Below, in pieces: positions 14,420-15,784 of a stretch of DNA of 64,000 nt. Under the pieces are notes generated by a model. The model worked only from the letters and a program-made list of their open reading frames with translations. It ran no database searches and was not told the origin of the DNA. Origin of the DNA: Verrucomicrobiia bacterium (lineage in GTDB: Bacteria > Verrucomicrobiota > Verrucomicrobiia > Limisphaerales > UBA11358); assembly GCA_035605035.1 (NCBI GenBank), contig DATNHI010000106.1:849-64848 (forward strand), read 5' to 3'. How positions within the stretch are numbered: the stretch's first letter is position 1; every line of letters starts with the position of its first letter. The position numbers and the translations under genes were made by a program.

Positions 14420-15784
14420 ATGCTTTCGGCAATGAAACTTCTGGTCATCGGTTCGGGCGGACGCGAACACGCGCTGGTGTGGAAACTCGCGCAGTCACCG
14501 CACGTCACCCAACTGTGGTGCGCGCCGGGTAACGCTGGAATCGGACAGGAAATAGTGGGACAGGCTTCCAGCCTGTCTGTGGCAACGAACAGGCAAGATG
14601 CCTGTGCCACGGCACGGGCCGCAAAAAATTCTCCCCTTGTCGAATGCGTCAATATTTCCGCCGGAGATTTGCCAAAGCTTCTCGCGTTCGCGCAGGAGAA
14701 GAAAATCGAACTTACCGTCGTCGGCCCGGACAATCCGCTGGCGCTAGGCATCGTGGATTTATTCCAAAAAAACGGCCTGCGAATCTGGGGTCCGAACCGG
14801 AAGGCCGCGCAGTTCGAGTCGTCCAAGGTTTTCTCGCAGCGGTTCGTGGAGAAATACGGCATCCCAACGGCGCGCGCCGGGACGTTTTCGGTGGCAGGAC
14901 CCGCCAAGGCCTTTGCCGCGTCACTCGGCGGCAAATGCGCCGTGAAAGCCGACGGCCTCGCGCTCGGCAAAGGCGTTCTGATTTGCACGAACATGGCAGA
15001 AGCGAACAAGGCGATTGACGAAATCCTGGTCGGCAAAGCCTTTGGCGCGGCGGGCGCAAAGATTGTCATCCAGGAATTTCTGGAGGGCATGGAAATTTCG
15101 CTGCACGCGCTGTGCGACGGTAAAACGGCGAAGCTTTTTCCGACGTCACAGGACCACAAACGCGCGCTGGACTGTGATAAAGGTTTGAATACAGGCGGCA
15201 TGGGCACCTATTCGCCGACGCCGTTCCTGAGCGAAAAGGAATTGGCGGAGACGAGCCGCAAGATTCTGGAACCGTTCACGCGTGGTTGCGCGGCGGAGGG
15301 TATTGATTTTCGCGGCATTCTATATCCCGGCATCATGCTCACGAAGTCCGGCCCGAAGGTGCTGGAATTTAACGCCCGGCTCGGTGACCCGGAAACGCAA
15401 GTCTATCTGCCGCGGCTGGAAAACGACCTGGTCGAACTGCTCGACGCCAGCGCCAGCGGCACACTCGATAAAATGGAATTAAAATGGAGTCCGGTGGCGG
15501 CGGTTTGTGTGGTCATGGCCAGCGGCGGTTATCCCGGCAGTTACACGAAGGGCCAGCCCATCCTGGGTCTGGCCGAAGCGGCGAGATTGCCGAACACAAA
15601 AGTATTTCATGCTGGAACGGCATTGAAGGACGGTCAAATCGTGACGAACGGCGGCCGGGTCCTTGGGGTGACCGCGCTCGGCAAGGATTTGAAATCCGCA
15701 CAGGCGGCGGCCTATGCGGCAGTTGAAAAAATCCATTTCGACGGCGCGCATTTCCGCCGCGATATCGCGGCGAAGGCGCTTTGA
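14420..15784 (+). CDS. purD: phosphoribosylamine--glycine ligase with an in-frame palindromic insertion
   Basis: [23 protein letters not shown] (likely start 14432)...CAPGNAG...ATP-grasp core...[11 protein letters not shown]. Confidence 0.9.
   Translation: [454 protein letters not shown]
14559..14605. repeat. two small hairpins inside the purD CDS (in frame)
   Basis: gacaggc-ttcca-gcctgtc and acaggca-aga-tgcctgt. Translated as [18 protein letters not shown] in the loop after CAPGNAG. Confidence 0.8.

What the first reader, a model, noticed from the sequence alone, without database searches (positions are those of the whole stretch)
14550..14640. In-frame double-hairpin insertion in purD
After the conserved CAPGNAG, the sequence [32 protein letters not shown] is encoded by two perfect 7-bp-stem hairpins (14559-14577, 14589-14605). 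Canonical PurD goes almost directly to the next beta-strand here. The opposite-strand ORF reads the same element as DRLEACPT.
Basis: partly seen in the sequence, partly recalled or inferred. Interest (0 to 1): 0.6.

Follow-up and report, generated by a model that had tools for sequence, protein, structure and literature searches.

The report
REP hairpin pair inside purD gene
A 63-base pair of small palindromic repeats (a REP doublet, a type of selfish DNA) sits in frame inside the purine-synthesis gene purD and adds 21 amino acids to a variable loop; the same kind of insertion has been described in related bacteria since 2013, so this is a clear but fairly ordinary example.

Summary
Window 14559-14577 and 14589-14605 are perfect hairpins with 8-bp and 7-bp stems. 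They form an inverted doublet spanning 14555-14610. Comparison with empty-site orthologues puts the insertion at exactly 63 nt (14552-14614, 21 codons, [21 protein letters not shown]), between CAGGAA and CGGGCC. Of 116 close Limisphaerales PurDs, 83 lack the insert.

Each unit has a GTGG or GTAG tag followed by a CAGGC-N-TCY-N-GCCTG hairpin. That is the anatomy of GTAG-tagged REPs, arranged tail-to-tail like a REPIN. Seven units occur in the window: in-frame doublets in purD and purM, two single units in a sigma-factor gene, and one just after kdpC. The stem-closing pair is Watson-Crick in 36 of 36 copies, with four pair types. In a cyanobacterium the same motif flanks a confirmed RAYT transposase.

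Di Nocera et al. 2013 already reported intragenic GTAG/GTGG REP dimers encoding 20-30 aa in the verrucomicrobium Opitutus terrae, with the same peptides (GTGVPPV, HGRDARAT). This is therefore a new member of a known kind.

Three things go modestly beyond that paper. Different element variants occupy the same codon boundary in different lineages. Presence of the insert is patchy among equally close relatives. Third-codon positions inside the insert are frozen.

The parts
14432..15784 (+). purD (phosphoribosylamine-glycine ligase) coding sequence. The ORF opens at ATG 14420; orthologues start at MKLLVIG, which is 14432.
   Evidence: GARS_N, GARS_A and GARS_C domains; 100% identical to P0001.
14552..14614 (+). 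The 63-nt (21-codon) in-frame insertion encoding [21 protein letters not shown].
   Evidence: empty sites read CAGGAA|CGGCTC, the window reads CAGGAA|ATAGTGG...CCACGGCA|CGGGCC. No target-site duplication; the boundary is ambiguous by 1 nt.
14555..14577 (+). Left REP unit: GTGG tag plus hairpin GACAGGCT-TCC-AGCCTGTC.
   Evidence: covariance-model hit at 38.7 bits, E = 8e-7.
14578..14587 (+). Spacer between the two units (TGTGGCAACG). It partly pairs with GCCAC of the right unit.
14588..14610 (-). Right REP unit in inverted orientation: GTGG tag plus CACAGGCA-TCT-TGCCTGT on the minus strand.
   Evidence: covariance-model hit at 36.6 bits, E = 2.5e-6.
10616..10668 (+). Second in-frame doublet of the same family, inside purM (9887-10978), read VAQTSRLHSKSRRDACAT.
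   Evidence: Solved PurM structures have a gap here. Folds at -21.5 kcal/mol, z = -5.8.
20626..20648 (-). Single unit in frame in the sigma-70 r2/r4 plus secretin-domain gene, read SGTGVPPV (site 2).
20776..20798 (-). Single unit in frame in the same sigma-factor gene, read GGTGVPPV (site 1).
42072..42094 (-). Extragenic unit of the family, 3 nt after the kdpC stop codon, between convergent genes.
14353..15207 (-). Antisense shadow ORF that reads the element as DRLEACPT. Not a gene.
   Evidence: It lies opposite a purD under strong purifying selection (about 90% aa against about 82% nt identity).

Best explanation
The element is a tail-to-tail dimer of GTAG/GTGG-tagged REP units (repetitive palindromes), built like a REPIN. 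It was inserted into, and is now fixed in, a variable loop of the PurD N-domain just after the PGNAG motif.

Shown here: each unit is a 4-nt GTRG tag followed by a 7-8 bp hairpin with a 3-nt loop. The insert is 63 nt, has no stop codon in the purD frame, and leaves the native loop intact on both sides. The gene therefore most likely makes a PurD with 21 extra residues.

Inferred from the family: such units are copied as single-stranded hairpins by a RAYT (REP-associated tyrosine transposase of the IS200/IS605 HUH type), which leaves no target-site duplication. Insertions land widely, and only those that keep the frame, lack stops and fall in tolerant loops survive in essential genes.

Inferred for later history: the insert persisted and was reshaped by compensatory change, by gene conversion from other copies, or by homologous recombination between lineages.
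For: Anatomy. All doublets have the GTRG tags pointing outward.

Dispersed family. Seven units in the window score E <= 4e-5 with a covariance model, and the next hit scores 0.013. A looser pattern finds 29 units in 819 kb of related loci plus the window.

Hairpin constraint. The free stem-closing pair is Watson-Crick in 36/36 copies with four pair types, and in 162/172 copies from other genomes. In 29 distinct units, 93% of cells are paired against 27-40% when the partners are slid, and 0 of 500 shuffles reach the covariation score.

Clean insertion. Empty sites are seen in 83 of 116 protein relatives, and 70 of 73 metagenome loci are at or within three residues of the empty-site length.

Dispersal of the doublet as a unit. 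The purD insert of L049 and the purM insert of L020 share 32 identical nt covering the left arm and the start of the spacer.

RAYT link. In Cylindrospermum (L114) a protein scoring 94.5 bits against NF047646, REP-associated tyrosine transposase (cut-off 80), is flanked by units of this motif.

Published precedent. Opitutus terrae GTAG-19 elements sit inside genes as singles and dimers and encode GTGVPPV, HGRDARAT, WHGRPAR and VARASRP. GTGG heads and 20-30 aa dimers are also noted (PMC3733652).

Translation. The frame is kept in every orthologue despite four different net insert lengths (+42, +54, +57 and +63 nt).
Against: No RAYT lies in the 64-kb window. None of the Limisphaerales loci shows a RAYT flanked by this unit. 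The one RAYT-like gene found there (L030) is flanked by a different repeat, so mobilisation in this lineage is inferred, not shown.

The genome-wide copy number is unknown.

The insert is far more conserved than a neutral passenger should be. Third-codon positions differ at 0/21 sites against about 36% gene-wide, for the window compared with L081 and with L082.

Different variants occupy exactly the same codon boundary in different lineages, which random insertion alone does not predict.

Translation through the insert was not tested, and the AlphaFold model was too poor to place the loop (pLDDT 55).
Confidence: 0.85

Rival explanations
1. The doublet is a functional nucleic-acid element kept by selection. 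It could be an mRNA structure that tunes translation or decay of purine-biosynthesis genes, or a DNA site for a nucleoid protein or a domesticated RAYT. On this view it is not a tolerated passenger.
For: Third-codon positions inside the insert are frozen: 0/21, 0/21 and 2/21 differences against 36-37% in the rest of purD. Stems show compensatory pair swaps at the orthologous site, T-A, A-T and G-C. purD and purM carry doublets read from the tag in the same frame.
Against: Most close relatives do without it (83 of 116). The right hairpin has decayed to mismatches in L081 and L082. For L081 and L082 the low-divergence tract runs about 20 codons beyond the insert into native sequence, which fits a recombination tract better than selection on the element. 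The same units also occur in a sigma-factor gene, an Hsp70 gene and after kdpC, with no common pathway. There is no terminator-like site and no Rfam family.
Confidence: 0.09
2. The 21 residues are an adaptive protein loop, for example a regulatory or interaction surface of PurD. On this view the hairpins are a by-product.
For: The reading frame and the motifs GQASSLS and RQDACAT recur in 33 relatives.
Against: Amino acids change exactly where the stem pairs swap: S, R or C in the left unit, and Q-D, L-E or R-D in the right. The nucleotide pairing is what is kept, not the residues. The same DNA is read in another frame (GTGVPPV) in the sigma-factor gene. Insert length and spacer vary. Most orthologues lack the insert.
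Confidence: 0.03
3. The insert spread between lineages mainly by homologous recombination of a purD segment, and was lost the same way, rather than by repeated transposition. This is an alternative account of the patchy distribution, not of the element's identity.
For: Outside the insert the window's PurD is as close to empty-site proteins (91.6% to P0018, 91.4% to P0011) as to insert-bearing ones (92.1% to P0002, 89.4% to P0003). Third-position divergence is 1/40 over alignment columns 41-80 against L081 and L082, compared with about 36% gene-wide. The window shares its purD insert with L081 but its purM insert with L002, whose purD site is empty.
Against: The 57-type insert (L049) has a different spacer and identical arms, and shares 32 nt with a purM insert. 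That points to an independent arrival or a replacement. At 80-89% nt identity the gene trees are star-like and cannot separate the scenarios.
Confidence: 0.4
4. The hairpins are a chance feature of a native long loop, or an assembly artefact.
For: None beyond the small size of the feature.
Against: The pattern has 0 expected matches against 3 found, and folding z-scores are -5. The same insert occurs in independent assemblies from NCBI, ENA and JGI.
Confidence: 0.01

Closest known systems
GTAG-tagged REPs, especially the intragenic GTAG-19 elements of Opitutus terrae (Di Nocera, De Gregorio and Rocco 2013, BMC Genomics 14:522, PMC3733652)
   Same: A short hairpin with an unpaired GTAG or GTGG tag, dimers in opposite orientation, and sub-families with alternative complementary stem bases. 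Copies sit inside genes as singles or as dimers encoding 20-30 aa. The encoded peptides are identical or near-identical (GTGVPPV, HGRDARAT and VARASRP there; [16 protein letters not shown] and VAQTSRL here). The phylum is the same, Verrucomicrobiota.
   Different: The order differs (Limisphaerales rather than Opitutales) and the stems differ (CAGGC against mostly CGGGC). purD and purM are not among the O. terrae targets listed. The paper surveyed single genomes. It notes only one case of different REPs at about the same site (Xanthomonas recB). Here the same codon boundary is occupied by different variants across many lineages.
REPINs mobilised by RAYTs (Bertels and Rainey 2011; Nunvar et al. 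2010; Ton-Hoang et al. 2012; PMC3337134 as listed)
   Same: Two REPs in inverted orientation with a short spacer. The pair folds into one long hairpin in L049 (-40 kcal/mol) and L084 (-29 kcal/mol). There is no target-site duplication. A confirmed RAYT is flanked by the motif in L114.
   Different: Classical REPINs are extragenic and present in hundreds of copies. Here the copy number is unknown, the window's copies are mostly inside genes, the window's two arms have diverged to 82% complementarity, and no cognate RAYT was found in the lineage.
Rickettsia palindromic elements (RPE; Ogata et al. 2000, recalled from memory and cited within PMC3733652)
   Same: Palindromic selfish DNA inserted in frame in essential protein-coding genes, translated, and located in tolerant surface regions.
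   Different: RPE-1 is longer (about 100-150 bp) and restricted to Rickettsia. According to PMC3733652, RPE-4 and RPE-6 belong to the CGTC-tagged superfamily, not the GTAG one, and no RAYT is associated with them.
E. coli BIMEs (REP clusters)
   Same: Inverted REP pairs with GTAG-type tags.
   Different: BIMEs are extragenic, bind IHF or gyrase and affect mRNA stability. None of these properties was tested here.

Membership tests
GTAG-tagged REP superfamily | A 20-40 bp unit that forms a stem-loop with a 6-9 bp stem | tested here: met
   Stems of 8 bp and 7 bp with 3-nt loops.
GTAG-tagged REP superfamily | An unpaired GTAG tetranucleotide at one end (GTRG and GTGG variants accepted) | tested here: met
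   GTGG on both purD units, GTAG on both purM units. The 29 distinct units were collected with a pattern that requires GT[AG]G, so the tag is not an independent finding for them.
GTAG-tagged REP superfamily | Many dispersed copies in the genome | tested here: inconclusive
   Seven units in 64 kb, and 29 in 819 kb of relatives plus the window. The full genome was not available.
GTAG-tagged REP superfamily | Sub-families with alternative complementary stem bases (covariation) | tested here: met
   Closing pair Watson-Crick in 36/36 copies with 4 pair types. Covariation score 0.386 against 0.148 in shuffles, reached by 0 of 500.
GTAG-tagged REP superfamily | Units frequently paired in opposite orientation (HH or TT dimers) | tested here: met
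   All doublets have the tags outward, i.e. tail-to-tail.
GTAG-tagged REP superfamily | Predominantly extragenic location | tested here: inconclusive
   Six of the 7 window units are inside genes. Across other genomes, 31% of units lie in long open frames against 68% of random positions, so the family as a whole is depleted in genes. Intragenic copies are documented for O. terrae.
REPIN / RAYT system | A RAYT gene flanked by the same REP (a REPtron) | tested here: inconclusive
   Met in Cylindrospermum L114 (NF047646 at 94.5 bits, cut-off 80; units at 3501, 3582, 3615 and 4205). Not found in the window or in any Limisphaerales locus. The L030 RAYT-like gene has a different flanking repeat.
REPIN / RAYT system | The doublet, not the single unit, is the replicating entity: the same doublet and spacer appear at unrelated loci | tested here: inconclusive
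   L049 purD and L020 purM share 32 nt of left arm plus spacer, but the right arms differ. Single units also occur.
REPIN / RAYT system | Cleavage and transposition by the RAYT on single-stranded DNA | not testable with these tools
   Needs biochemistry.
Rickettsia palindromic elements | Sequence similarity to RPE-1 through RPE-8, and a Rickettsia host | not tested
   No sequence comparison with RPEs was run. The host here is Verrucomicrobiota and the units carry a GTAG-type tag, whereas PMC3733652 assigns RPE-4 and RPE-6 to the CGTC class. Works alike, but not filed as a member.

The most novel reading that the evidence does not exclude
Particular loops of housekeeping enzymes in Limisphaerales may be heritable landing pads. 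The candidates are the boundary after QE in PurD, the boundary after KFN in PurM, and two sites in a sigma factor. On this reading, once a palindromic element sits at such a site, other elements or variants replace it at the same nucleotide boundary, by REP-targeted insertion or by gene conversion. The resident element would be held under nucleotide-level constraint (third-codon positions frozen), so it would act as a maintained cis-element rather than as decaying junk.
Probability: 0.1. Interest if true: 0.6.

Novelty: new member of a known kind. Interest (0 to 1): 0.3.

Why it matters
The finding has practical uses. Gene callers and homology tools should expect 7-30-residue REP-encoded inserts in Verrucomicrobiota proteins. 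Peptides such as GQASSLS, RQDACAT and GTGVPPV, and antisense ORFs such as DRLEACPT, mark selfish DNA rather than protein motifs.

It also has some biological interest. It adds purD, purM, an ECF-type sigma factor and an Hsp70 to the list of essential genes that tolerate translated REP dimers. It offers a set of natural occupied and empty alleles across many uncultured lineages. That set could be used to study how REPs enter, persist in and leave coding sequence.

It does not open a new class of system.

Tried and rejected
- **Known RNA family:** Rfam gave only a sub-threshold miRNA match (18.7 bits against a gathering score of 57). Rejected.
- **Intrinsic terminator or attenuator:** no terminator-like site lies at the insert. 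Rejected.
- **Structure prediction:** AlphaFold on a 37-sequence alignment gave pLDDT 55, with the insert below 50. This is too poor to place the loop and was not used as evidence.
- **Protein tree:** a neighbour-joining tree of 118 PurDs with the insert masked was star-like. Insert-bearing sequences were scattered, but the branches are too short to count gains and losses.
- **RAYT homologue searches:** the L114 RAYT returned only cyanobacterial proteins. The L030 protein returned one highly conserved verrucomicrobial family, presumably tied to a different repeat. Neither linked a RAYT to this unit in Limisphaerales.
- **Target-site duplication:** none found; the boundary is ambiguous by a single A.
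- **Metagenome scan for purD loci:** this returned mostly empty sites, with only 3 of 73 occupied, so occupied alleles had to be fetched one at a time.

Full report
**1. Observation**

The repeat finder reports perfect inverted arms at 14559-14566/14570-14577 and at 14589-14595/14599-14605. It also reports a larger 22-nt inverted pair, 14555-14576 against 14589-14610, that is 82% complementary.

The shared core ACAGGC-N-GCCTGT occurs three times in the window, against none in 100 dinucleotide-preserving shuffles. The 63-nt insert folds as single-stranded DNA at -20 kcal/mol with z = -5.1. A 111-nt RNA around it folds at -44.6 kcal/mol with z = -3.3.

The ORF 14420-15784 (+) reads through the element and is PurD, with GARS_N, GARS_A and GARS_C domains. 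The antisense ORF 14353..15207 does contain DRLEACPT, but it is a shadow frame opposite a conserved gene.

**2. It is an insertion, with exact limits**

A protein search returned 120 close relatives, some labelled Limisphaerales or Verrucomicrobiota MAGs. Of the 116 that could be classified, 83 read PGNAGIAQE|RLAKNSAPVECVN. The other 33, including the window's own protein, carry 14-21 extra residues at that boundary. Among 73 classifiable metagenome loci only three are occupied.

At the DNA level, empty sites read CAGGAA|CGGCTCGC. The window reads CAGGAA|ATAGTGGGACAGGC...GCCTGTGCCACGGCA|CGGGCCGC. The insert is therefore 14552-14614: 63 nt, 21 codons, [21 protein letters not shown].

There is no target-site duplication. 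Solved PurD structures align to residues 1-41 and from residue 68 onward, and skip the insert. The native loop itself varies among relatives (RLAKNSAP, RTEKTGKP, QLIKSQL). That variation fits a tolerant site.

**3. What the element is**

Each half is a GTGG or GTAG tetranucleotide followed by a hairpin of the form (G/C)(A/G)CAGGC-N-TCY-N-GCCTG(Y)(S). The two halves face each other with the tags outward.

The same unit occurs elsewhere in the window:
- an in-frame doublet in purM (10616-10668, read VAQTSRLHSKSRRDACAT), where solved PurM structures have a gap;
- two single units in a sigma-70 r2/r4 plus secretin-domain gene (20626-20648 and 20776-20798, read SGTGVPPV and GGTGVPPV);
- one unit 3 nt after the kdpC stop codon (42072-42094).

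A covariance model built from 29 distinct units finds exactly these seven at E <= 4e-5. The next hit scores 0.013.

In 819 kb of related loci plus the window there are 29 units, and every doublet has its tags outward. The stem-closing pair was left free by my search pattern. It is Watson-Crick in 36 of 36 copies with four pair types, and in 162 of 172 copies from other genomes. On the 29 distinct units, 93% of cells pair, against 27-40% when the partners are slid. No shuffle out of 500 reaches the covariation score.

The hits span Planctomycetota, Verrucomicrobiota (including Limisphaerales, Opitutales, Chthoniobacterales and Akkermansia), Acidobacteriota, deltaproteobacterial lineages, Cyanobacteria and Chloroflexota.

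**4. Link to a transposase**

One hit is from Cylindrospermum sp. NIES-4074 (L114). It contains a 176-aa ORF that scores 94.5 bits against NCBIfam NF047646, REP-associated tyrosine transposase (cut-off 80), and 31 bits against Pfam Y1_Tnp. Its homologues are annotated RayT.

Units of this same motif flank the gene: three upstream and one palindromic copy downstream. Another unit lies inside its coding sequence, read NRRDACST. The motif therefore belongs to a RAYT-associated REP family in at least one genome.

I found no such gene in the window or flanked by this unit in Limisphaerales DNA. A RAYT-like gene in L030 scores 74.7 bits, just under the cut-off, and matches PDB 4er8 at E = 5e-5. It is flanked by a different repeat of about 110 nt. 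Mobilisation by a RAYT in this lineage is therefore an inference.

**5. What is already known**

Di Nocera, De Gregorio and Rocco (2013, PMC3733652) sorted REPs into GTAG- and CGTC-tagged superfamilies. They report the following:
- More than half of the intragenic inserts are dimers or groups encoding 20-30 aa.
- The tag is mutated to GTGG in one O. terrae family.
- Their Additional file 3 lists O. terrae GTAG-19 peptides GTGVPPV, HGRDARAT, WHGRPAR and VARASRP. These are the same hairpin read in different frames as in this window.

They also record one case of different REPs at about the same site, in recB of two Xanthomonas species. This was the only paper in the library containing intragenic, REPIN and RAYT together. 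The purD insert is thus a new instance of a described phenomenon.

**6. What the comparison adds**

*(a) Different variants at the same boundary.* In purD the forms are:
- a 59-residue loop form (window, L081, L082, L087);
- a 52 form that has lost the native RLAKNSAP (L083, L085, L010);
- a 56 form (L084, L040);
- a 57 form with a longer spacer (L049).

The closing pairs swap among T-A, A-T and G-C, which changes the encoded residues (S, C or R; QD, LE or RD). In L049 and L084 the two arms are perfect inverted copies and fold as one long hairpin (-40 and -29 kcal/mol). The window's arms have diverged.

*(b) The doublet moves as a unit.* The L049 purD insert and the L020 purM insert share 32 identical nucleotides of left arm plus spacer.

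*(c) The purM site is a hotspot.* The site after KFN holds at least six unrelated inserts in different relatives. The two sigma-factor sites are occupied or empty independently of each other.

*(d) Presence is patchy.* With the insert masked, the window's PurD is 91.6% identical to an empty-site protein and 92.1% to the closest occupied one. The window shares its purD insert with L081 but its purM insert with L002, whose purD site is empty.

*(e) The insert is more conserved than the gene.* Against L081 and L082 it differs at 3 of 63 nt, and at 0 of 21 third-codon positions, compared with about 17-18% and 36% in the rest of purD. For those two loci the quiet tract continues about 20 codons downstream. 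That favours a shared recombination tract. For L087 the quiet tract is confined to the insert.

I cannot separate recombination, gene conversion from other copies, and direct selection with these data.

**7. Mechanism, and how sure**

I put 0.85 on this reading: a REP dimer of the GTAG/GTGG class, inserted in frame, tolerated in a variable loop and translated.
- The identity and the insertion are shown.
- Translation is inferred, from the frame being kept through four different insert lengths in a gene under strong purifying selection.
- RAYT-mediated origin is inferred from the family and from L114.

The main rival is a maintained cis-acting RNA or DNA element. Frozen synonymous sites and compensatory stems support it. 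Against it stand the 83 relatives without the insert, decaying stems in L081 and L082, the spread of the same unit over unrelated genes, and the absence of a terminator or known RNA family. I give it about 0.09. An adaptive peptide loop is unlikely, because what is conserved is base pairing, not residues.

**8. Limits**

- The set of related loci was chosen around purD. The high share of intragenic units there (41 of 44) counts the same orthologous sites repeatedly. In the unbiased genome hits only 31% of units lie in long open frames, against 68% of random positions. The family as a whole avoids genes.
- The structure model was poor.
- The gene tree is unresolved.
- Only 64 kb of the source genome was available.

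**9. Verdict**

It is a new member of a known kind, with interest about 0.3. The recurrence at the same site and the frozen synonymous positions are the only parts worth following up.

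Noticed in passing
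window 10616-10668 (purM, 9887-10978 +): A second in-frame REP doublet of the same family, adding 18 aa (VAQTSRLHSKSRRDACAT) before IKAFAHITGGG. Solved PurM structures have a gap there.
   Followed up: yes
window 19363-20880 (-), units at 20626-20648 and 20776-20798: A gene that fuses sigma-70 regions 2 and 4 to a C-terminal secretin domain carries two single REP units read SGTGVPPV and GGTGVPPV. Relatives have either site empty or occupied independently. The sigma-secretin fusion is itself unusual.
   Followed up: partly
window 42072-42094 (-): An extragenic unit 3 nt after the kdpC stop codon, between convergent genes. This is the classic REP position.
   Followed up: yes
window 9273-9344: A weaker, different palindromic doublet (GGAGCGCGGACAGCTTGTCCGCG ... 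GCGGGCAGGCTGCCCGCGCTCC) in the intergenic region upstream of purM. It scores 16 and 20 bits with the unit model.
   Followed up: no
purM site after KFN in L007, L017, L024, L018, L064, L081, L009, L030, L020, L037: At least six unrelated short inserts, several of them recognisably palindromic repeat families, occupy the same purM loop in different relatives. The site looks like an insertion hotspot.
   Followed up: partly
L071 1374-2738 (purD): This PurD has an empty QE| site but carries an unrelated 25-aa insert (GRAGSPLPAVRTQNGAHGVTRPTATD) in another loop, after GIMLIK.
   Followed up: no
L040 20280-20372, in Hsp70 gene 19125-21086 (-): A 93-nt doublet of the same family in frame in an Hsp70/DnaK homologue (VGQASSLPGGGEADGTARATALVGQAGSLPY).
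   Followed up: partly
L030 3984-4550 (-), repeats at about 3860-3980 and 4570-4690: A RAYT-like gene (NF047646 at 74.7 bits, cut-off 80; PDB 4er8 at E = 5e-5) sits between purM and the cyd genes. It is flanked by direct copies of a repeat of about 110 nt with inverted ends TTTGGACTGCGG...CCGCAGTCCAAA. It has 6193 homologues, and the top 120 are 74-91% identical, some labelled Verrucomicrobia.
   Followed up: partly
L114 3662-4192 (Cylindrospermum sp. NIES-4074): A confirmed RAYT flanked by GTAG-CAGGCG units also has one unit inside its own coding sequence (3937-3957, read NRRDACST).
   Followed up: partly
L030 7378-7482: A truncated duplicate of the purD 5' end ([23 protein letters not shown], then out-of-family sequence and a stop), about 170 nt upstream of the intact purD.
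   Followed up: no
purD alignment columns 41-80, window against L081 and L082: Third-codon positions differ at only 1 of 40 sites across the insert and the next 20 codons, against about 36% gene-wide. This suggests a recently shared (recombined) segment or nucleotide-level constraint.
   Followed up: partly
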